Origin: Escherichia phage 348Ecol098PP
Direction: 5' to 3' (one strand)
Sequence record: OR062947.1
DNA length: 64,000 nucleotides
The position numbers and the translations under genes are program-made. The notes beneath the pieces are model-generated. The model saw nothing but the letters and a program-made list of their open reading frames with translations. It was not told the origin of the DNA and searched no databases. Numbering within the stretch: position 1 is the first letter of the stretch; every line of letters starts with the position of its first letter. Positions 40,846 to 48,179 of this stretch are shown piece after piece.

Positions 40846-41189
40846 ATCCTATTTACGCTATAGTAGCAGCTTTTGCTCTAGTTTCTACGGTAACAATAGT
40901 TGTCTTAAACAACAAAGTTGATTCGTTGAATACTGAATTAGCTTCTGTCAAAGAGACCGCTAAAAACAATGCTAAAGTATTAGACGACTTCAAGGTTCAA
41001 TATCAGTCAATCGAAGAAATGACTTATAAGAACCGTGTTTTAGTTGACCAACTTAAGGCCGAAAATGAAAAGCTCCGTAAGGATTCGAAGAAGAAGAACG
41101 TGGTGGCAAGTAAACCAGGATTGGTCGAAAAACAAATCAACAGGTCCTTCGATTCCTTTGCAGAAGACCTCAGGAAGCTCTCAGAATGA
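40833..41189 (+). CDS. pseT.3: i-spanin (Rz-like): N-terminal TM helix plus coiled coil
   Basis: 118 aa; hydrophobic N-terminus IYAIVAAFALVSTVTIVVL then charged coiled-coil-like region; lies between alc and pseT where T4 encodes its spanins. Confidence 0.55.
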   Translation: MLKVNPIYAIVAAFALVSTVTIVVLNNKVDSLNTELASVKETAKNNAKVLDDFKVQYQSIEEMTYKNRVLVDQLKAENEKLRKDSKKKNVVASKPGLVEKQINRSFDSFAEDLRKLSE

Positions 41190-41476
41190 TTAAATTAACC
41201 GCAGTTGTATTATCTATTGGCATTTTGGCTGGATGTGCCCAGGATGTGCCCTTAAGCCCTAAAGAAACTTTACATCCGCCATGGCCAGAATCTATTGTTG
41301 AATATAACCAGAAATGGCAAGTAAAGGTTATTGATGGTAATCCGTGGGTTGGAATGCCATTTGAAGACTCTCAAGAATTTCGTATCTGGTTAAACGACGT
41401 AAAAAGATATGTACATGACCAGAAGACTATGTTATGTTATTATCGTAGTGGTTTAAAAGAGGAAAAATGTCAATGA
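41186..41476 (+). CDS. pseT.2: o-spanin (Rz1-like outer-membrane lipoprotein)
   Basis: 96 aa; signal peptide with lipobox LAGC (MIKLTAVVLSIGILAGCAQ); ATGA overlap with the i-spanin. Confidence 0.55.
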   Translation: MIKLTAVVLSIGILAGCAQDVPLSPKETLHPPWPESIVEYNQKWQVKVIDGNPWVGMPFEDSQEFRIWLNDVKRYVHDQKTMLCYYRSGLKEEKCQ

Positions 41477-41691
41477 CTAAAGAACAGCATGAATACATTA
41501 AAGGGCTTATCTATGAATCTGAAATGGCGGCTATGATTTATGGACGCCAGATTCAACGATTAGAATCTTTGCCTCCGACTAATGACCGCTTGTTAGTTCA
41601 GTCTCGTGCTAATCTGAAAAATGAATATCAGAATAAGTGGGCAGTAGCGACTAAAGCTCTTCATGAGTATATTGAATCTTTAGTAAAATAG
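41467..41691 (+). CDS. hypothetical protein
   Basis: 74-aa ORF. Confidence 0.45.
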   Translation: MSMTKEQHEYIKGLIYESEMAAMIYGRQIQRLESLPPTNDRLLVQSRANLKNEYQNKWAVATKALHEYIESLVK

Positions 41692-41720
41692 TTTACAAAC
41701 TCTCGGGAGCAGAGTATAAT
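41691..41720 (+). promoter_or_regulatory. T4-type early promoter inside a stem-loop
   Basis: GTTTAC at 41691-41696; tataat at 41715-41720 flanked by ggagca/tgctcc. Confidence 0.5.
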
Positions 41721-41748
41721 GCTCCTATGGATAATTGAGGAAATCTAA

Positions 41749-42047
41749 ATGAAAACATTACTAGAGAATTACATCAAACGGTCTGATGAGTATATTGATA
41801 TCTGCCGTGGAATGTCACTTGTCGATTATGACAAAGATGCAGCAAAGGCACTAGATGAAGCAGGTAAAGCTCTTCGTAAAGCTGCTAAAGAAAAAGGGTT
41901 GGATTTGCAACAACTCAAAAGTCATATGATTAAATTTATTTCTTCAAACGTTAGAAGTACGTCAATTAATAAAAACGTTGCTGAAATTAATAAAGACCGG
42001 CGCGAGCATAACATTCGTATTCTTGAAACTTTCTTAGGAATAAAATA

Positions 42048-42048
<1 letters not shown>
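41749..42048 (+). CDS. hypothetical protein
   Basis: 99-aa ORF with gagga RBS. Confidence 0.5.
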
Positions 42049-43134
<1,086 letters not shown>

Positions 43135-43135
<1 letters not shown>

Positions 43136-43326
43136 TGAAACGATTATATGAAGTGATTGAGGCCATCGAACGGCATAAAGAATATTTGTTTGTAGCCTGG
43201 CCTTTAGTAAATGGACAGTTCGGTATTGATGTGCTGGACTATGAGCATGAAGAACGTTTGGACGGTGGTATATTTGATAACGTCGACCAGGCAATTGAAT
43301 GGTTAAATGAAAACTATGTACGATAA
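43135..43326 (+). CDS. hypothetical protein
   Basis: 63-aa ORF, TAATG overlap with the pseT stop. Confidence 0.45.
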
Positions 43327-43531
43327 ACATCATGAAATCGAAGATGAAGCATACAAAATGCTTCGTAAACTAGTGGGACTTAATATGAGTCCTACATTAA
43401 TCAACAAACTCGCAGGAATTCGTAATGATCTGAATACTCGTTACAAAGGCGAATATCATGTAGAGTTTGTTCCTGTAGGTGAACCGACCGAGCGATTTGT
43501 TGTTCGAGTTAAAGTAAATACTGTACACTGA
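43307..43531 (+). CDS. hypothetical protein
   Basis: 74-aa ORF. Confidence 0.45.
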   Translation: MKTMYDKHHEIEDEAYKMLRKLVGLNMSPTLINKLAGIRNDLNTRYKGEYHVEFVPVGEPTERFVVRVKVNTVH

Positions 43532-43538
43532 GGTAATT

Positions 43539-43814
43539 ATGTTCCCAACTTATTCTGAAATTGTAAAGGTAGTCTTCAGTCAGATTATTGCTAATAATAT
43601 GTTTGAAGTGCTTGATAATGCAGCCGAACTCAGAGTTCATGCTCAACTAACTCATGTACTCAATGCTTTGCTCCCAGACCAAGTAGATTCTATTGCTATT
43701 ACTCTTCTCCCTGGGTCTGCACACGTCATAGTGGTATTTGATCTTGACGGCGATTTAGTTATCCAATGTGATATCAATTTCGGTACACAAAAAATTGAAT
43801 GCAAAGCAATTTAA
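43539..43814 (+). CDS. hypothetical protein
   Basis: 91-aa ORF. Confidence 0.45.
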   Translation: MFPTYSEIVKVVFSQIIANNMFEVLDNAAELRVHAQLTHVLNALLPDQVDSIAITLLPGSAHVIVVFDLDGDLVIQCDINFGTQKIECKAI

Positions 43815-43816
43815 TG

Positions 43817-43850
43817 GTTTACAACATGGTGGAGTTGTGATACTATAACT
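43817..43850 (+). promoter_or_regulatory. T4-type early promoter inside a stem-loop
   Basis: GTTTAC at 43817-43822; imperfect inverted repeat ggtggagtt/aactctacc around gtgatactata. Confidence 0.45.
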
Positions 43851-43874
43851 CTACCAACAAATGAGGAAATAGAA

Positions 43875-44111
43875 ATGCTAAGTGAAAACCCAATTACAGT
43901 ACACGAATTTCAGATTAAAGTAAAAGAATTTGCTCAAGCACTCATCAATAAAGTGTCTGAACGTTTCCAAGATGCAACATTACGAGTTATTCAAGAATCT
44001 CCACGTTCTTTTCTCATAATCGTTAATCCTAAAGATGGTGACCAAATTACTAATCTTAAATTAGGCAGTGATGGTCTTGTTGAAGCAACTCGAGTATATG
44101 GAACACTATAA
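43875..44111 (+). CDS. hypothetical protein
   Basis: 78-aa ORF with gagga RBS. Confidence 0.5.
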   Translation: MLSENPITVHEFQIKVKEFAQALINKVSERFQDATLRVIQESPRSFLIIVNPKDGDQITNLKLGSDGLVEATRVYGTL

Positions 44112-44231
44112 TGAGAGCTATCTCATTACTATCGAGAATGGTCATAAATCTGAGCACTACCAACTTAGCCTGTCTAATCCGGTTAAAGGTATTGTTGAAT
44201 CAGAATCTGTTTATATCTCCTAAGGATTGTT

Positions 44232-45224
44232 ATGTTACCTGTCGTCAGAAAACTTATTTCTCCAAAAGAACTGGCTGAGATTATTCCTTTGTCGGAAGCT
44301 TACGCATCACAAGTGGCTTCTCATCGTGAACAAGTTAATTCGATTATGAACGGTGAAGACCCACGCAAACTTATTGTTGTAGGTCCTTGTTCAATTCATG
44401 ACCCTATTGCTGCTGTTGAATACGGCAAACGTCTGGCTGAACTTCAAACTCGTCTTCCTAATGTTCTGTTAGTGATGCGCGTTTATTTTGAAAAGCCTCG
44501 AACTACCGTAGGTTGGAAAGGTCTTGTAAATGATCCATATCTTGACGGAAGTTTTGATATGAACCACGGTCTTATAGTTGCACGAACATTGTGTCGTAAA
44601 CTTCTACGTATGGGACTTCCATTAGCAACTGAAGTATTAGACCCATTCACGATTAAGTATCTTTCTGGTATTTTCTCATGGGTTGCTATTGGCGCCCGTA
44701 CGACTGAAAGTCAGACACATCGTGAAATTGCTTCAGGTCTACCGATGTGCGTAGGCTTCAAGAACGCAACCAGTGGTTCTATTAAAGTAGCTACAGACGC
44801 GATGTATAGTGCCGCCTGGCCTCATCGGTATATGGGTATGGACGTCGATGGTACTGTAGGCATTGTTGAAGCTGAAGGTAATCAGAATACGCATATCATA
44901 TTGCGTGGCGGGACCAACGGCCCGAACTATCATTCTTCTGATATTCAAGAAGCTTCTAACAAAGCAAGTGCAGTAGGTCTGAATCATTATGTAATGGTTG
45001 ACTGTAGCCATGCAAACGCTGCTGGGCATTATAGCAATCAAATTGGTATTGGTAAAAATTTAGCAGCTAATGATTTGGTCAAAGGAATTATGATAGAATC
45101 ATTCCTACATGAAGGAAATCAAAAAATTTCTGATAATATGTCCTATGGCGTTTCCATTACCGATGCGTGCATCAGTTGGGAACAAACTAAAGAGCTGTTA
45201 ACTTATATTAATAAGGTTCAATAA
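44232..45224 (+). CDS. 3-deoxy-7-phosphoheptulonate (DAHP) synthase, class I (AroG/AroF/AroH-like)
   Basis: 330-aa ORF; GPCSIHD, FEKPRTTVGWKGL, GARTTESQTHRE, VDCSHANA, ESFLHEGNQ, SITDACISWE match recalled E. coli AroG signature and metal/PEP-binding positions; stop overlaps the cd start. Confidence 0.8.
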   Translation: MLPVVRKLISPKELAEIIPLSEAYASQVASHREQVNSIMNGEDPRKLIVVGPCSIHDPIAAVEYGKRLAELQTRLPNVLLVMRVYFEKPRTTVGWKGLVNDPYLDGSFDMNHGLIVARTLCRKLLRMGLPLATEVLDPFTIKYLSGIFSWVAIGARTTESQTHREIASGLPMCVGFKNATSGSIKVATDAMYSAAWPHRYMGMDVDGTVGIVEAEGNQNTHIILRGGTNGPNYHSSDIQEASNKASAVGLNHYVMVDCSHANAAGHYSNQIGIGKNLAANDLVKGIMIESFLHEGNQKISDNMSYGVSITDACISWEQTKELLTYINKVQ

Positions 45225-45805
45225 TGAAAGCTAGCACATATCTTCAAATTGCTTATTTGATTTCTCAAGAATCAAAATGTTGTTCATGGAAAGTTGGTGC
45301 CGTCATTGAAAAAGATGGACGCATTATTTCTACAGGTTATAATGGCTCTCCTTCAGGTGGTACAAACTGTTGCGAACATGCGTCCGAAAACGGCTGGTTG
45401 AAGAATAAACCAAGCCCGGTCATCGTTGCTGGGCATAAAGAAGGCACTACAGCATTTGGACGGGCAGATAATTTTGTTTTGGCTAAAGAACATCGGGCTG
45501 CTCATAGTGCATGGTCTGCTAATAACGAAATCCATGCAGAATTGAATGCAATTTTGTTCGCAGCTCGTAAAGGTAATTCTATTGAAGGTGCTACGTTATA
45601 TACTACGCTTTCTCCGTGTCCTGATTGCACTAAAGCTATCACACAATCAGGCATTAAAAAGGTCGTATATGCAGAATTATATGACCGGTCTCCTGAAAAT
45701 TGGGCAGACATTCTAAAACAAGCTGGTATTGAAGTAATTCAGTACTCTCGTAATAATCTTCGTTCTCTGAATTGGGAACAAATCCGAAACTTTTGTGGTG
45801 AATAA
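45224..45805 (+). CDS. cd: dCMP deaminase
   Basis: 193-aa ORF, same length as T4 Cd; zinc-binding HAE...PCxxC deaminase motifs. Confidence 0.85.
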   Translation: MKASTYLQIAYLISQESKCCSWKVGAVIEKDGRIISTGYNGSPSGGTNCCEHASENGWLKNKPSPVIVAGHKEGTTAFGRADNFVLAKEHRAAHSAWSANNEIHAELNAILFAARKGNSIEGATLYTTLSPCPDCTKAITQSGIKKVVYAELYDRSPENWADILKQAGIEVIQYSRNNLRSLNWEQIRNFCGE

Positions 45806-45806
45806 T

Positions 45807-46103
45807 ATGATTTTAACTGAACAAGAAACTATGGTTCTTCGTGAACGTATTAAAACTATTCTGTCTGTAGGCGTTCATCGTGTTGTATTTGAAAAGGCTA
45901 ATGGTGATGTTCGTACGATGTTTGCTTCTCGTGATGAACTTGAAGTCAAATATGAAAATAGAAATCCAGCAACAGAAGTTCGTTCTGAACCTCGTGAATC
46001 AGTTCGAGCATTCGATACCGAGTTAGGTCAGTGGCGTTCTTTCCGCCTTGATAAAGTAATTTCGGTTGATGGTACTCCGGTAGAACGTTTGCTTCTTATG
46101 TAA
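45807..46103 (+). CDS. hypothetical protein
   Basis: 98 aa from the ATG at 45807, just after the cd stop. Confidence 0.5.
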   Translation: MILTEQETMVLRERIKTILSVGVHRVVFEKANGDVRTMFASRDELEVKYENRNPATEVRSEPRESVRAFDTELGQWRSFRLDKVISVDGTPVERLLLM

Positions 46104-46160
46104 TATGCTTTACGAATAGTATGGTATTATTAATCTATCGTCAAACAACAAGGAAATAAG

Positions 46161-46493
46161 ATGTCTGAAGTACAACTCCCAATTCGTGCTGTTGGTGAAT
46201 ATGTCATTCTGGTTTCTGAACCCGCTCAAGCAGGTGATGAAGAAGTTACCGAATCAGGACTTGTGATTGGTAAACGTGTTCAAGGTGAAGTTCCTGAACT
46301 ATGTGTAGTTCATTCTGTAGGTCCTGATGTTCCTGAAGGTTTTGTTGAAGTTGGTGATTTGACTCCACTACCAGTTGGACAAATTCGAAATGTTCCACAT
46401 CCATTTGTGGCTTTGGGACTTAAACAACCTAAAGAAATTAAACAGAAATTCGTAACATGCCACTATAAAGCTATTCCGTGTCTTTATAAGTGA
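46161..46493 (+). CDS. 31: co-chaperonin gp31 (GroES-like)
   Basis: 110-aa ORF near-identical to recalled T4 gp31 ([29 protein letters not shown]...[15 protein letters not shown]). Confidence 0.9.
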
Positions 46494-46501
46494 TATAAAT
46501 A
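46494..46501 (+). promoter_or_regulatory. late promoter TATAAATA upstream of rIII
   Basis: Exact tataaata, about 115 nt upstream of the rIII ATG. Confidence 0.5.
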
Positions 46502-46617
46502 ACTATATGAAGAGAACACTCTTCTAAGCGGTAGCCTACAACTGAGAGACTTGTCGAAAGAAGGTGAAATTCAGACGAACGTGGCTACTAAATATTATCT
46601 CGAATTGAGAATTTAAA

Positions 46618-46866
46618 ATGATTAAACAATTACAACACGCTCTTGAACTGCAACGAAACGCATGGAATAATGGTCATGAAAACTACGGCGCATCTATTGA
46701 TGTTGAAGCCGAAGCTCTTGAAATCCTTCGTTATTTCAAACATCTGAACCCGGTCCAGGCAGCTTTGGCTTCTGAACTTGAAGCAAAAGATGAACTGAAA
46801 TATGCTAAGCCTTTGGCTTCTGCAGCTCGTAAAGCAGTACGTCATTTTGTTATTACCCTGAAATAA
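46618..46866 (+). CDS. rIII: rIII lysis-inhibition accessory protein
   Basis: 82-aa ORF near-identical to recalled T4 RIII (MIKQLQHALELQRNAWNNGHENYGASIDVEAEALEILRYFKHLNP...). Confidence 0.9.
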   Translation: MIKQLQHALELQRNAWNNGHENYGASIDVEAEALEILRYFKHLNPVQAALASELEAKDELKYAKPLASAARKAVRHFVITLK

Positions 46867-47060
46867 GTGTTAGGTGAGTCACTACCTTAGTGCGAAGTTA
46901 AAATCGAGGAGCCGTCGAACTATGTTTTACGGTGTACCTCTTGAATGTTGACGAGGTTTATGGTTATCCTGTCGTTAAATATCCAAAACCTATGTTCCCT
47001 TCGAGGGCTTGCGCAGGCAATGTCAATAAGTCCTGCATTTTCATTTAAAGAGAATTTATA

Positions 47061-47240
47061 ATGGCAAAACAAGCTAAAGCAAAGAAAGCAGTTGAAAAGA
47101 AAGTTGATGGTACCTCTAAACGCGCTGGATACAAGCGTGGGTCGAACTATCGTATTAATCAAACAGTTGAGAAGATCATGCGCAGAGCACGTGCAGTTCT
47201 TCGAGATGATGCTTCTCGTTTTGGAAAGGTTATTGCATAA
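47061..47240 (+). CDS. small highly basic protein (59 aa)
   Basis: MAKQAKAKKAVEKKVDGTSKRAGYKRGSNYRINQTVEKIMRRARAVLRDDASRFGKVIA; followed by a strong terminator; not in the ORF track. Confidence 0.45.
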   Translation: MAKQAKAKKAVEKKVDGTSKRAGYKRGSNYRINQTVEKIMRRARAVLRDDASRFGKVIA

Positions 47241-47245
47241 TTTTA

Positions 47246-47267
47246 GGGAGACTTCGGTCTCCCTTTT
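47246..47267 (+). terminator. rho-independent terminator
   Basis: gggagacTTCGgtctccc followed by tttt; identical hairpin to the one at 30213. Confidence 0.65.
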
Positions 47268-47299
47268 GTGCGTTTAGGGCAGAAAAAGTTTAAAAAGAT

Positions 47300-47328
47300 G
47301 TTTACTCTCCTGTAGGATGTGTTACTAT
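47300..47328 (+). promoter_or_regulatory. T4-type early promoter
   Basis: GTTTAC at 47300-47305, gtgttactatag -10 region. Confidence 0.5.
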
Positions 47329-47370
47329 AGACTTGTACCACCTAATCGATAAAACAAACCGGAGAACAAA

Positions 47371-47739
47371 ATGAAAATCAATCTGAACTCATACATCAAA
47401 TGTAAAGACCACGACGGTTATAAAGCTATCGAAATTAAAGAATTCCAGTGGATGTTATACAAAGAGCAATTTGAGTTCGTAGGTTGTATGACCCCTGAAG
47501 GACCTTCAGATGATTTCTCTTGGAAAATTGTGTTAGCAAACTTTTTCACAGGTGACACATACGAATTAAAAACTATTATTACCGGTAAAATTCGTTCAGA
47601 AACATATGTTGACGAAGAAACTGGTTACTCTGAAGATGTTACATGGTATCAAAATGGACGCATTACAGCAGATAACCTGATCGAAAAAATGAAAGCCAAA
47701 GGTGTTTTAAATTTAGACAATTGGATTAAAGTTGCATAA
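47371..47739 (+). CDS. hypothetical protein
   Basis: 122-aa ORF with ggaga RBS. Confidence 0.55.
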   Translation: MKINLNSYIKCKDHDGYKAIEIKEFQWMLYKEQFEFVGCMTPEGPSDDFSWKIVLANFFTGDTYELKTIITGKIRSETYVDEETGYSEDVTWYQNGRITADNLIEKMKAKGVLNLDNWIKVA

Positions 47740-47743
47740 AACA

Positions 47744-47772
47744 GTTTACTTTGGTACAGGTTATGTTATTAT
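47744..47772 (+). promoter_or_regulatory. T4-type early promoter inside a stem-loop
   Basis: GTTTAC at 47744-47749, tattat at 47767-47772; inverted repeat ggtacagg (47753-47760) / cctgtacc (47776-47783). Confidence 0.5.
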
Positions 47773-47813
47773 AGACCTGTACCAACAAACAACTTAAACA
47801 TCTGGAGAATAAA

Positions 47814-48179
47814 ATGAACTACATCAACTTCGAACGTAAATATGTTTCTAACGGTATCGCTGGTTCTTCTGAAGTTATTTGCTTATGGAAACACGAAAAC
47901 GGTACAGTTTGTGAAATCGAACAGTGCATGACTCCTAATTACGTTTATATGCGATTTGAAAACGGCATCACGGTTTCAATCACGATGGAAGGTTCAAATT
48001 TTAAAATTGCATTAGATGATGATTTCCGTCAGCGTGATTTAGGTACTCATCCTTGCTGGAACGGTGTTAATCGTAAACTTCTGGTTAAAACTTGGATTCG
48101 TCATATCCTGAGTAACCGAGCTAAACCTGAACATCTCGAAGCAATCTTTGATGTAGTTCTTAATGAATTCGATATCTAA
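47814..48179 (+). CDS. hypothetical protein
   Basis: 121-aa ORF with ggaga RBS. Confidence 0.55.
   Translation: MNYINFERKYVSNGIAGSSEVICLWKHENGTVCEIEQCMTPNYVYMRFENGITVSITMEGSNFKIALDDDFRQRDLGTHPCWNGVNRKLLVKTWIRHILSNRAKPEHLEAIFDVVLNEFDI

What the first reader, a model, noticed from the sequence alone, without database searches (positions are those of the whole stretch)
44232..45224. Phage-encoded class-I DAHP synthase (AroG-like) translationally coupled to dCMP deaminase
A 330-aa ORF carries the signature and metal/PEP-binding residues of 3-deoxy-7-phosphoheptulonate synthase (GPCSIHD, KPRTTVGWKGL, GARTTES, CSHANA, ESFLHEGNQ, SITDACISWE), so it looks catalytically intact. It sits in the pseT-cd hyperplastic region, where T4 as I recall it has only small cd.x ORFs, and its stop overlaps the cd start. 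Codon usage looks AT-rich and phage-like by eye, suggesting long residence. Hypothesis: an auxiliary metabolic gene that forces carbon into the shikimate pathway (chorismate to pABA to folate) to support the folate-dependent frd/td/hm-dCMP reactions encoded nearby, or to escape host feedback control. It is about 8 residues shorter at the N-terminus than AroG, a region tied to allostery in the host enzymes. I cannot tell from memory whether relatives already carry this annotation.
Basis: partly seen in the sequence, partly recalled or inferred. Interest (0 to 1): 0.65.

Follow-up and report, generated by a model that had tools for sequence, protein, structure and literature searches.

The report
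Phage DAHP synthase, feedback pocket remodelled
A T4-like (Mosigvirus) phage carries an intact copy of the enzyme that opens the aromatic amino-acid (shikimate) pathway; the gene is real but already annotated in well over a hundred phage genomes. The one fresh point is that the site where end products switch off the bacterial enzyme has been rebuilt in the phage version.

Summary
The ORF at 44232..45224 (+, 330 aa) is real. It is a type I-alpha 3-deoxy-7-phosphoheptulonate (DAHP) synthase: Pfam PF00793 E=1e-75, TIGR00034 428 bits, 51% identity to E. coli AroF, AlphaFold model TM 0.96 to solved DAH7PS. All 14 metal, PEP and E4P residues checked are conserved. Its stop overlaps the cd start (TAATG).

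It is not new. The window is a Mosigvirus, 99.2% identical here to vB_EcoM-172859UKE1. A homologue occurs in 212 phage records, 139 at >=95% identity, with many annotated as DAHP synthase/aroF/AroG, and it defines PHROG 5045.

It sits in the same pseT-cd slot in five T4-like genera. It forms one old clade (200/200 bootstrap) next to gammaproteobacterial AroF, with phage-like codon use and between-genus dN/dS of 0.14-0.21. RB69 and about ten other Mosigvirus records lack it.

The added value concerns allostery. Only six alignment columns separate phage from cellular enzymes, and five lie in the known inhibitor pocket (P=4e-7). The N-terminal inhibitor-binding segment is also deleted.

Best reading: an active early-expressed enzyme that escapes Phe/Tyr/Trp feedback. 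The folate purpose is untested. I found no experimental study. Interest is low to moderate.

The parts
44232..45224 (+). DAHP synthase gene (330 aa, type I-alpha, AroF-like, phage clade)
   Evidence: ORF. Pfam PF00793 1.1e-75; TIGR00034 427.7 bits; PRK12755 456.2 bits; phrog_5045 1.5e-181. 14/14 catalytic residues conserved. AF2 pLDDT 92.7, TM 0.96 to DAH7PS structures.
44221..44226 (+). Shine-Dalgarno-like TAAGGA, 5 nt before the ATG; it overlaps the stop codon of the small upstream ORF
   Evidence: Read directly from the sequence. Function inferred.
45222..45226 (+). TAATG stop/start overlap between DAHP synthase and cd; AAGG at 45213-45216 could serve as the cd ribosome-binding site
   Evidence: Sequence. 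Coupling is inferred, not shown.
45224..45805 (+). cd, dCMP deaminase (193 aa)
   Evidence: Pfam PF00383 1.6e-26; phrog_174 1.1e-74. Annotated as cd in relatives.
43818..43846 (+). Sigma-70-like site TTTACA-17-TACTAT with TG, between the cd.3 and cd.2 homologues; candidate early promoter for cd.2, DAHP synthase and cd
   Evidence: Consensus scan, 9/12; the region as a whole has no more sites than its shuffles. T4 carries an annotated early promoter between cd.3 and cd.2. No + strand terminator-like site in 41000-47500. Weak evidence.
43875..44111 (+). cd.2 homologue (DUF7320), left neighbour; in RB69 it abuts cd directly
   Evidence: Pfam PF24005 1.5e-35. RB69 annotation and blastn.
44127..45220 (+). 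1,094-bp segment absent from RB69 (the spacer plus DAHP synthase)
   Evidence: blastn of window against RB69: 41000-44126 aligns at 97.4% and 45221-47998 at 88.9%, with the RB69 ends overlapping by 19 nt.
44108..44126 (+). Left copy of an imperfect 19-nt direct repeat (ATAATGAGAGCTATCTCAT), a look-alike of the cd start
   Evidence: Alignment of the two junctions and the RB69 junction.
45221..45239 (+). Right copy of the direct repeat (ATAATGAAAGCTAGCACAT), the true cd start

Best explanation
The gene encodes a catalytically competent type I-alpha DAHP synthase (PEP + erythrose-4-phosphate -> DAHP + Pi). An ancestor of the Enterobacterales-infecting T4-like phages took it once, long ago, from an AroF-type gammaproteobacterial gene. 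It is probably transcribed early, in the same unit as cd (inferred).

The phage lineage kept the active site but rebuilt the allosteric inhibitor pocket. In AroG numbering the changes are P150->I141, Q151->K142, D155->G146, S180->P171, F209->Y200 and T223->A214. It also lost the N-terminal residues that close that pocket from the neighbouring subunit. The enzyme should therefore no longer be shut off by Tyr, Phe or Trp.

During infection, host gene expression is off (established T4 biology, not tested here). The host isoenzymes are also feedback-inhibited whenever aromatic amino acids are present. The phage enzyme would then keep the one committed, regulated step of the shikimate pathway open, and the six later steps would be left to surviving host enzymes.

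Shown here: identity, intact catalytic residues, fold, clade history, purifying selection, pocket remodelling. Inferred: enzymatic activity, feedback insensitivity, early expression, benefit to the phage. Which chorismate-derived product matters (aromatic amino acids, folate/pABA, quinones) is not known.
For: Identity: Pfam, NCBIfam and PHROG hits far above cut-offs; 51% identity to E. coli AroF; PDB AroF 6agm E=1.5e-104; AF2 model pLDDT 92.7 with TM 0.96 and rmsd 1.3-1.5 A to E. coli and N. meningitidis DAH7PS.

Catalysis: AroG C61, R92, K97, P98, R99, T100, G163, A164, R165, K186, R234, H268, E302 and D326 are all conserved in the window protein. Thirteen of them are invariant in all 32 phage-like sequences examined; T100 is Ser in one.

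Selection and age: between-genus dN/dS is 0.14-0.21 with dS 1.2-1.9. GC3 is 0.29, like neighbouring phage genes and unlike the host's 0.51-0.57. The window's private substitutions (N181S, V223I, V309I) are conservative. The 30 phage-type sequences are monophyletic in 200/200 NJ bootstraps, and the next larger clade adds E. coli AroF. The nearest cellular proteins are only about 50-55% identical.

Synteny: the gene lies between pseT/cd.x and cd in Mosigvirus, Marfavirus, Winklervirus, Bragavirus and Kanagawavirus, and in an uncultured T4-like contig.

Allostery: an unbiased scan of all 330 positions finds only six columns that separate the 30 phage from the 98 cellular sequences. These are AroG 150, 151, 155, 180, 209 and 223. 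Five of the six fall in a 14-position list of inhibitor-site and feedback-resistance positions taken from the literature (hypergeometric P=3.7e-7). That literature reports the following (PMC9529685): AroG P150L is completely Phe-resistant; S180F and F209A/S are resistant; Q151 and S180 contact the inhibitor's main chain; D155 stabilises the site. Phage proteins have 8-12 residues before the conserved Pro (AroG P19), against at least 16 in every cellular sequence, so the equivalents of AroG D6/D7 and AroF N7/N8 are missing. Deleting Ile11 of AroF alone gives a feedback-resistant enzyme (PMC10729320).

Expression: no + strand terminator-like site between 41000 and 47500. A sigma-70-like site lies where T4 has an annotated early promoter.
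Against: No activity or inhibition data exist for any phage member in the literature I could search.

The exact replacements (I, K, G, P, Y, A) have not been tested. Resistance is known for other substitutions at these positions.

Several pocket residues are retained (AroG D146, L179, and Gly at 211 as in AroF). The pocket positions are more conserved than the rest of the protein within the phage clade (entropy 0.39 against 1.00). That fits a pocket that still does something, not one that was simply abandoned.

The 98 cellular comparators are the best hits to the phage query, so they are biased towards AroF-like enzymes.

The gene is dispensable for plaque formation: RB69, several mar005P1 records, JK36, JK42, moha and ECO111 5-P lack it, and G53 carries a frameshifting duplication.

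Within Mosigvirus there are too few changes to show current constraint.

The promoter assignment rests on a weak consensus match.
Confidence: 0.6

Rival explanations
1. Re-tuned regulation rather than lost regulation. The pocket was rebuilt to bind a different effector (for example a nucleotide-pool or infection-state metabolite), or to lock a particular quaternary state. The phage enzyme would then still be allosteric, but would listen to a phage-relevant signal.
For: The six clade-defining replacements are nearly fixed (29-30 of 30) across a clade whose members are as little as 53% identical. The former inhibitor-site positions have lower entropy than the rest of the protein (0.39 against 1.00; Mann-Whitney p=0.026). 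Q->K and F->Y add a charge and a hydroxyl inside the pocket, which is not what random decay would give. The beta6a/beta6b hairpin that forms the site is retained in the model.
Against: These positions also lie at or near the subunit interface (knowledge of AroG structures, not measured here), so conservation may be structural. The N-terminal lid of the pocket is gone. No candidate ligand is indicated by anything in the sequence.
Confidence: 0.17
2. One reading: the enzyme exists to raise chorismate, then pABA, then folate supply for the phage's folate-dependent dTMP and hm-dCMP synthesis.
For: The gene is packed against cd and lies in the nucleotide-metabolism half of the genome (frd, td, nrdAB about 6-11 kb upstream). 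It is probably co-transcribed with cd. A deregulated first step would raise flux to all chorismate products.
Against: Adjacency to cd is not conserved: small ORFs intervene in Winklervirus and Bragavirus. The slot is simply the variable cd.1 position of T4. No pab or fol gene is annotated in the corresponding stretch of the closest relative. Folate is catalytic and recycled by frd, so the demand is tiny compared with the flux through DAHP synthase (general biochemistry). RB69 makes the same modified DNA without the gene (the DNA chemistry is from my own knowledge).
Confidence: 0.12
3. Substrate drain rather than product supply: an unregulated DAHP synthase is used to pull PEP and erythrose-4-phosphate out of central metabolism. 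This would rebalance the non-oxidative pentose-phosphate pathway or the PTS in the infected cell.
For: Only the first enzyme of the pathway is phage-encoded. Loss of feedback control would make it an open sink. Analogy with cyanophage pentose-phosphate auxiliary genes (my own knowledge).
Against: No direct evidence. The stoichiometric effect of removing E4P on ribose-5-phosphate supply is ambiguous. Draining PEP would cost energy the phage needs.
Confidence: 0.06
4. A passenger with no current function in this phage: a moron kept by linkage in a hyperplastic region.
For: Presence/absence polymorphism inside one genus, and even one species. One genome has a frameshifting 55-nt duplication. Within Mosigvirus, 5-6 nonsynonymous against 1-2 synonymous differences.
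Against: Between genera dN/dS is 0.14-0.21, and all catalytic residues are kept over saturating synonymous divergence. About 139 of roughly 150 Mosigvirus-type records keep it intact. The window's own changes are conservative.
Confidence: 0.05

Closest known systems
DAHP synthase genes already annotated in Mosigvirus and other T4-like phages (PHROG phrog_5045; e.g. vB_EcoM-172859UKE1 QZI80077.1, JK45, O157 typing phage 3 'aroF', Shf125875 'AroG', PhAPEC2, APCEc01, HX01)
   Same: 97.6-99.1% amino-acid identity, same length, same position, same TAATG junction with cd. The PHROG profile matches end to end at E=1.5e-181.
   Different: Nothing of substance: three conservative private substitutions. 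The database labels 'Tyr-sensitive' and 'AroG' attached to some of these genes are probably wrong in the light.
E. coli AroF, Tyr-sensitive DAHP synthase (PDB 6agm/6agl)
   Same: Best solved relative: E=1.5e-104, 51% identity. Same catalytic residues, same fold, Gly at the AroG-S211 position as in Tyr-type enzymes. It belongs to the next larger clade in the NJ tree.
   Different: The phage protein lacks AroF residues 1-9 and replaces P151, Q152, D156, S181, F210 and T224 (AroF numbering). It has 5- and 3-residue deletions near the C-terminal third and is 26 residues shorter overall.
Engineered or selected feedback-resistant DAHP synthases (AroG P150L, S180F, F209A, D146N; AroF delta-Ile11)
   Same: The changes hit the same positions or segment: 150, 180, 209 and the N-terminus.
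   Different: The natural phage variant combines six fixed substitutions with an N-terminal deletion. It uses different residues (I, K, G, P, Y, A), and its kinetics are untested.
T4 cd.1 / RB69 cd.2-cd junction (the same genomic slot without the gene)
   Same: Same flanking genes and the same stop/start overlap architecture.
   Different: T4 has a 112-aa ORF of unknown function there. RB69 has nothing. The window has 1,094 extra bases flanked by an imperfect 19-nt repeat.

Membership tests
DAHP synthase, type I-alpha (Pfam PF00793; NCBIfam TIGR00034 aroFGH) | Profile score above the curated cut-offs | tested here: met
   PF00793 254.5 bits (cut-off 25.5); TIGR00034 427.7 bits (173.2); PRK12755 456.2 bits (343).
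DAHP synthase, type I-alpha (Pfam PF00793; NCBIfam TIGR00034 aroFGH) | Metal ligands Cys-His-Glu-Asp (AroG C61, H268, E302, D326) | tested here: met
   C53, H260, E289, D311; conserved in 32/32 phage-like and 93/93 other sequences.
DAHP synthase, type I-alpha (Pfam PF00793; NCBIfam TIGR00034 aroFGH) | PEP/E4P binding residues: KPRT motif, R92, G163-A164-R165, K186, R234 | tested here: met
   K88-P89-R90-T91, R83, G154-A155-R156, K177, R225.
DAHP synthase, type I-alpha (Pfam PF00793; NCBIfam TIGR00034 aroFGH) | (beta/alpha)8 barrel with the extra beta6a/beta6b hairpin | tested here: met
   AF2 model pLDDT 92.7, strands 198-203 and 209-214 present. Foldseek TM 0.96, rmsd 1.3-1.5 A to 1kfl, 1qr7, 4hso and others.
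DAHP synthase, type I-alpha (Pfam PF00793; NCBIfam TIGR00034 aroFGH) | Catalyses PEP + E4P -> DAHP | not testable with these tools
   Needs an enzyme assay or complementation of an aroFGH mutant.
Feedback-regulated isoenzymes AroF / AroG / AroH (NCBIfam NF006723 and NF009396, as listed) | Score above the isoenzyme-specific cut-off | tested here: not met
   AroG model NF006723: 365 bits against a cut-off of 568. AroH model NF009396: 385.1 bits against 463.
Feedback-regulated isoenzymes AroF / AroG / AroH (NCBIfam NF006723 and NF009396, as listed) | Inhibitor pocket residues (AroG P150, Q151, D155, S180, F209) | tested here: not met
   I141, K142, G146, P171, Y200 in the window protein and in 29-30 of 30 phage-clade sequences. 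Q, S and F are in 97-98 of 98 cellular sequences.
Feedback-regulated isoenzymes AroF / AroG / AroH (NCBIfam NF006723 and NF009396, as listed) | N-terminal extension carrying inhibitor-contact residues (AroG D6/D7, AroF N8/I11 region) | tested here: not met
   8-12 residues precede the conserved Pro in the phage clade, against at least 16 in all cellular sequences; the D6/D7 columns are gaps in 30/30. That D6/D7 contact the inhibitor is from my memory of the 1KFL paper. The Ile11 deletion result is cited.
Feedback-regulated isoenzymes AroF / AroG / AroH (NCBIfam NF006723 and NF009396, as listed) | Inhibition by Tyr, Phe or Trp | not testable with these tools
   Needs kinetics.
KDO8P synthase (KdsA; shares Pfam PF00793, and LPS synthesis is mentioned for the phiC120 homologue) | Best match to a KdsA model | tested here: not met
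   The only NCBIfam hits are DAHP synthase models. The best PDB sequence and fold matches listed are all DAH7PS. The phiC120 paper's 'lipopolysaccharide' remark reflects the shared Pfam family only.
PHROG phrog_5045 (phage phospho-2-dehydro-3-deoxyheptonate aldolase, AMG category) | Full-length profile match | tested here: met
   E=1.5e-181, residues 1-330 on profile positions 8-337 of 341.

The most novel reading that the evidence does not exclude
The phage clade is a naturally evolved DAHP synthase whose allosteric pocket was not merely disabled but converted. It was rebuilt once and then held almost invariant for the whole history of the clade. It would bind a new effector, or fix a new oligomeric state, so that entry into the shikimate pathway becomes governed by a phage-relevant signal instead of by aromatic amino acids.
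Probability: 0.12. Interest if true: 0.6.

Novelty: already known. Interest (0 to 1): 0.3.

Why it matters
As a gene call it adds nothing. The same protein is deposited and named in more than a hundred T4-like phage genomes and has its own PHROG family.

What remains open, and appears untouched experimentally, is why lytic T4-like coliphages keep the gate enzyme of aromatic biosynthesis. The residue analysis turns that into a sharp, cheap test. The phage enzyme is predicted to be active but blind to Tyr, Phe and Trp.

If that holds, it would be a natural example of a virus removing a host feedback brake at a committed metabolic step. It would also be a ready-made feedback-resistant DAHP synthase scaffold for aromatic-compound production.

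Natural isolates with and without the gene (RB69, the two kinds of mar005P1 record) offer near-isogenic pairs for fitness tests. The database labels 'Tyr-sensitive aroF' and 'AroG' on these genes are probably misleading.

Tried and rejected
(1) Literature. Ten full-text searches looked for any study of a phage DAHP synthase. They gave only passing mentions: phiC120 ORF 64, Klebsiella phage KLB31, and metagenomic shikimate-pathway auxiliary genes that are not this enzyme. One hit was an artefact of accession prefixes. Two reviews held no AroF N8K, P148L or Q152I data, so those mutants, recalled from memory, are not used as evidence.

(2) Independent acquisitions by unrelated phages. The non-T4-like hits in the phage collection are not usable. 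'Acinetobacter phage MD-2021a' is a bacterial contig with cobS and cobT next to the gene. One record is a Salmonella chromosome. MT836486 and Pseudomonas phage Y13 are UNVERIFIED, unannotated, high-GC sequences. So I could not test for convergent pocket loss.

(3) Within-genus dN/dS. Only 6-8 differences, so uninformative.

(4) Biopython NJ with bootstraps timed out. I replaced it with a numpy implementation.

(5) MotA-box middle promoter for the gene. The only nearby + strand boxes are inside the gene (44727) and before gene 31 (46104). None lies upstream of the gene.

(6) Recent capture from the host. Rejected: 51% identity to E. coli AroF, saturated dS, ameliorated GC3.

(7) KDO8P synthase reading. 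Rejected.

(8) Decaying pseudogene in this window. Rejected: intact ORF, conservative private changes.
Full report
OBSERVATION. The ORF is there as described. The ORF listing gives 44232..45224 on the + strand, 330 aa, ATG start. The stop TAA (45222-45224) shares its last base with the ATG of the next ORF (45224..45805), giving TAATG.

That next ORF is a dCMP deaminase: PF00383 1.6e-26, phrog_174 1.1e-74. Upstream are pseT (42236..43135; HAD_PNKP 7.8e-59 plus AAA_33) and four or five small cd.x-type ORFs. Downstream are the 31.1 homologue (WYL_2) and the gene 31 co-chaperonin (Cpn10).

The start codon is the first possible one after an in-frame stop (TGA at 44196-44198, read). The short N-terminus is therefore real.

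IDENTITY. The protein matches the following.
- Pfam DAHP_synth_1 at 1.1e-75.
- NCBIfam TIGR00034 (aroFGH) at 427.7 bits against a cut-off of 173.2.
- PRK12755 at 456.2 bits against a cut-off of 343.

It stays below the cut-offs of the AroG model (365 against 568) and the AroH model (385 against 463). The best solved relative is E. coli Tyr-sensitive AroF (6agm, E=1.5e-104). Identity to E. coli K-12 AroG, AroF and AroH is 48%, 51% and 45%.

An AlphaFold2 model built on 42 sequences has mean pLDDT 92.7 and pTM 0.91. It superposes on E. coli and N. meningitidis DAH7PS structures with TM 0.96 and rmsd 1.3-1.5 A. The only low-confidence stretch is residues 91-95. By my recollection, this loop is also mobile in the crystal structures.

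In a 128-sequence alignment I checked fourteen residues: the four metal ligands plus ten PEP/E4P-site residues (KPRT, R92, G163-A164-R165, K186, R234). All are conserved in the window protein. Thirteen are invariant in every phage-like sequence; T100 is Ser in one. So it is a type I-alpha DAHP synthase that looks catalytically competent. It is not a KDO8P synthase, although the two share the Pfam family.

WHERE THE WINDOW COMES FROM, AND WHETHER THIS IS KNOWN. The 3.5-kb neighbourhood is 99.2% identical to Escherichia phage vB_EcoM-172859UKE1 (Straboviridae, Tevenvirinae, Mosigvirus). It is 98.0-98.5% identical to the other 29 records listed.

tblastn finds a homologue in 212 phage records:
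- 139 at 95% identity or more (Mosigvirus-type);
- 47 at 60-80% (Klebsiella, Serratia, Enterobacter, Edwardsiella, Erwinia and others);
- 26 below 60% (Proteus and others).

[quoted passage not shown] PHROGs has a dedicated family, phrog_5045, filed under auxiliary metabolic genes, and the protein matches it end to end at 1.5e-181.

Two papers mention such genes in passing. One covers phiC120 ORF 64. The other covers the Kanagawavirus KLB31, with the hypothesis that it helps make aromatic amino acids. In ten full-text searches I found no enzymology, genetics or metabolomics on any phage member. As a gene call the finding is already known.

HISTORY OF THE GENE. The gene occupies the same slot, between pseT/cd.x and cd, in the following:
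- Mosigvirus;
- Marfavirus F48;
- Winklervirus CHI14;
- Bragavirus PM2;
- Kanagawavirus Entb_45 and PEi26;
- an uncultured T4-like contig whose protein is only 57% identical.

It abuts cd in Mosigvirus, Marfavirus, Kanagawavirus and that uncultured contig. One small ORF intervenes in Winklervirus and two in Bragavirus. T4 has the 112-aa cd.1 there.

In a search of 5.8 billion proteins, the 27 closest full-length hits belong to phages or phage-like contigs (56-98% identity, 319-343 aa). The nearest cellular proteins are about 50-55% identical. One of these I checked sits next to nfuA- and metH-like genes.

In an NJ tree the 30 phage-type sequences form one clade in 200 of 200 bootstraps. The next larger clade adds E. 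coli AroF and other gammaproteobacterial AroF proteins. This tree is simple, and the sister relationship itself was not bootstrapped.

Between genera dN/dS is 0.14-0.21, with dS of 1.2-1.9, which is saturating. GC3 is 0.29, like pseT (0.33) and cd (0.26), and unlike E. coli aroF/G/H (0.51-0.57). All of this points to one ancient acquisition from an AroF-type gene, followed by long residence under purifying selection.

THE GENE IS ACCESSORY. RB69, the type Mosigvirus, lacks it: cd.2 abuts cd. blastn shows that window 44127-45220 (1,094 bp) has no counterpart in RB69. The two flanks align at 97.4% and 88.9%.

Both junctions carry an imperfect 19-nt direct repeat that includes the TAATG. The copies are ATAATGAGAGCTATCTCAT at 44108-44126 and ATAATGAAAGCTAGCACAT at 45221-45239. 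This fits either a deletion between the repeats in the RB69 line or an old insertion that duplicated the cd start.

The uninterrupted RB69-type junction occurs in 11 records: RB69 twice, ECO111 5-P, five mar005P1 records, JK36, JK42 and moha. That compares with 139 records carrying the gene. Another genome labelled Mosigvirus mar005p1 (OZ035759) does carry it. In vB_EcoM_G53 a 55-nt tandem duplication breaks the frame.

Within Mosigvirus there are only 6-8 differences per pair, too few for a selection test. The window's three private changes (N181S, V223I, V309I) are conservative and seen elsewhere in the family.

THE NEW POINT: THE ALLOSTERIC SITE. I scanned all 330 alignment positions for columns where the 30 phage-clade sequences and the 98 cellular sequences have different, nearly fixed residues. 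Only six qualified:
- AroG P150 -> I141;
- Q151 -> K142;
- D155 -> G146;
- S180 -> P171;
- F209 -> Y200;
- T223 -> A214.

The review PMC9529685 bears on five of these positions. It lists Q151, D155, S180 and F209 among the inhibitor-site residues. It reports AroG P150L as completely Phe-resistant and S180F and F209A/S as resistant. It states that the Q151 and S180 side chains hold the main chain of the bound Phe or Tyr.

I took fourteen positions from that review as the set of inhibitor-site or feedback-resistance positions. Five of six hits in that set has a hypergeometric probability of 3.7e-7.

In addition, every phage-clade protein has only 8-12 residues before the conserved Pro (AroG P19), against 16 or more in every cellular sequence. 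The columns of AroG D6/D7 (AroF N7/N8) are therefore empty. Removing Ile11 alone makes AroF feedback-resistant. That D6/D7 contact the inhibitor from the neighbouring subunit is my recollection of the 1KFL work, not something tested here.

So the active site is untouched while the inhibitor site is systematically altered. The straightforward prediction is an enzyme that aromatic amino acids cannot switch off.

There is a caveat that cuts the other way. Within the phage clade the former pocket positions are more conserved than the rest of the protein (mean entropy 0.39 against 1.00, p=0.026). The pocket was thus rebuilt once and then kept, not left to drift. It may be structurally constrained at the subunit interface, or it may bind something else. 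The cellular comparison set is also biased towards AroF-like proteins, because it came from the best hits to the phage query.

EXPRESSION. No terminator-like site lies on the + strand between 41000 and 47500. The best sigma-70-like sites on that strand are at 41692-41720 (11/12) and at 43818-43846 (9/12, with TG). The second lies between the cd.3 and cd.2 homologues, where the T4 record marks an early promoter.

The number of promoter-like matches in the region equals the shuffled expectation, so this is weak evidence. MotA boxes are enriched in the window (26 against 9.2 expected). None is placed to serve this gene; the one at 46104 precedes gene 31.

A TAAGGA lies 5 nt before the ATG, and an AAGG lies 7 nt before the cd ATG. 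Early co-transcription with cd and translational coupling are plausible inferences, no more. The same TAATG junction joins cd.2 and cd in RB69, so it is ordinary T4 gene packing.

FUNCTION. The best-supported account has four parts.
- The protein is an active DAHP synthase, made early.
- It has lost the canonical Tyr/Phe/Trp feedback.
- It therefore keeps the committed, regulated step of the shikimate pathway open in the infected cell.
- The remaining steps rely on host enzymes.

I put this at about 0.6, combining roughly 0.9 for activity and 0.65-0.7 for insensitivity. Which downstream product matters is unknown.

- adjacency to cd is not conserved;
- the slot is a generic variable site;
- no pab or fol gene is annotated in the matching 64 kb of the closest relative;
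- folate demand is catalytic;
- RB69 manages without the gene.

Other rivals are a re-tuned allosteric site (0.17), a PEP/E4P drain (0.06) and a functionless passenger (0.05).

VERDICT.

On novelty, the gene is already known as an annotation. The remodelled inhibitor pocket appears unreported in the literature I could search, and it is a modest, testable addition. Interest is 0.3.

Noticed in passing
window 44108-44126 and 45221-45239; RB69 NC_004928 134236-134254 (L010): The 1,094-bp DAHP synthase segment missing from RB69 is bracketed by an imperfect 19-nt direct repeat that includes the TAATG stop/start. The left copy starts a 55-codon ORF (44111..44278, 'MRAIS...') that mimics the cd start ('MKAST...'). 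It looks like the scar of an old insertion, or the substrate for the deletion seen in RB69-type genomes.
   Followed up: partly
L014 (vB_EcoM_G53, MK327943.1) 1234-2281: In this Mosigvirus the DAHP synthase carries a 55-nt tandem duplication (repeating ...NYHSSDIQEASNKASAVG...) that shifts the frame. The record marks it only as a misc_feature. This is either a natural knockout or an assembly error.
   Followed up: partly
records LR027383/86/87/90/91 versus OZ035759 (hits H94-H97, H101, H112): Genomes labelled as the same species (Mosigvirus mar005p1) differ in presence of the gene. The LR0273xx records have the uninterrupted cd.2-cd junction, while OZ035759 has the gene. They would be natural near-isogenic comparators.
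   Followed up: no
window 45795-46103 (31.1 homologue), 45224-45805 (cd), 42236-43135 (pseT): Neighbouring genes are mis-named in several deposited relatives. The 31.1 homologue (Pfam WYL_2, SH3-like barrel) is called 'tail fiber protein'. cd is called 'ribD riboflavin biosynthesis protein', 'tRNA-specific adenosine deaminase' or 'ComEB'. pseT is called 'zeta toxin' or 'AAA family ATPase'.
   Followed up: partly
L011 (Shigella phage JK45, MK962757.1): JK45 is filed in NCBI taxonomy under Tequatrovirus ('Tequatrovirus jaykay'), yet this 3.5-kb region is 98.5% identical to Mosigvirus genomes and carries the Mosigvirus-type DAHP synthase. That suggests a misclassification or a mosaic genome.
   Followed up: no
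phage collection records CAKLQF020000009.1 / CAKLQH020000056.1, AGRM01000002.1, OQ572414.1 (L019), MT836486.1 (L020): Several 'phage' records with DAHP synthase hits are not credible phage DNA. The Acinetobacter 'phage' contig has cobS and cobT beside aroF, and one record is a Salmonella chromosome scaffold. Pseudomonas phage Y13 and MT836486 are UNVERIFIED, high-GC and unannotated. The Y13 copy also has non-canonical pocket residues (A, G, G and H at AroG 150, 151, 180 and 209).
   Followed up: partly
whole window (26 sites; e.g. 46104-46112 before gene 31): The T4 MotA-box consensus WWTGCTTYA occurs 26 times against 9.2 +/- 2.8 expected from shuffles. This is consistent with T4-type middle promoters being used by this Mosigvirus.
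   Followed up: no
RB69 L010 11743-12252 versus window 45224-45805: RB69 cd is annotated at 510 nt (169 aa), although its first 30 codons are identical to the 193-aa cd here and in T4. The right flank aligns at only 88.9% with length differences, so RB69 cd differs further along or is annotated short.
   Followed up: no
window 44068-44223: A 51-codon ORF overlaps the 3' end of cd.2 and ends 8 nt before the DAHP synthase start. It is annotated as a hypothetical protein, with differing starts, in UKE1, JK45 and O157 typing phage 3. Kanagawavirus has only a 9-nt spacer here, so the ORF may not be a real gene.
   Followed up: no
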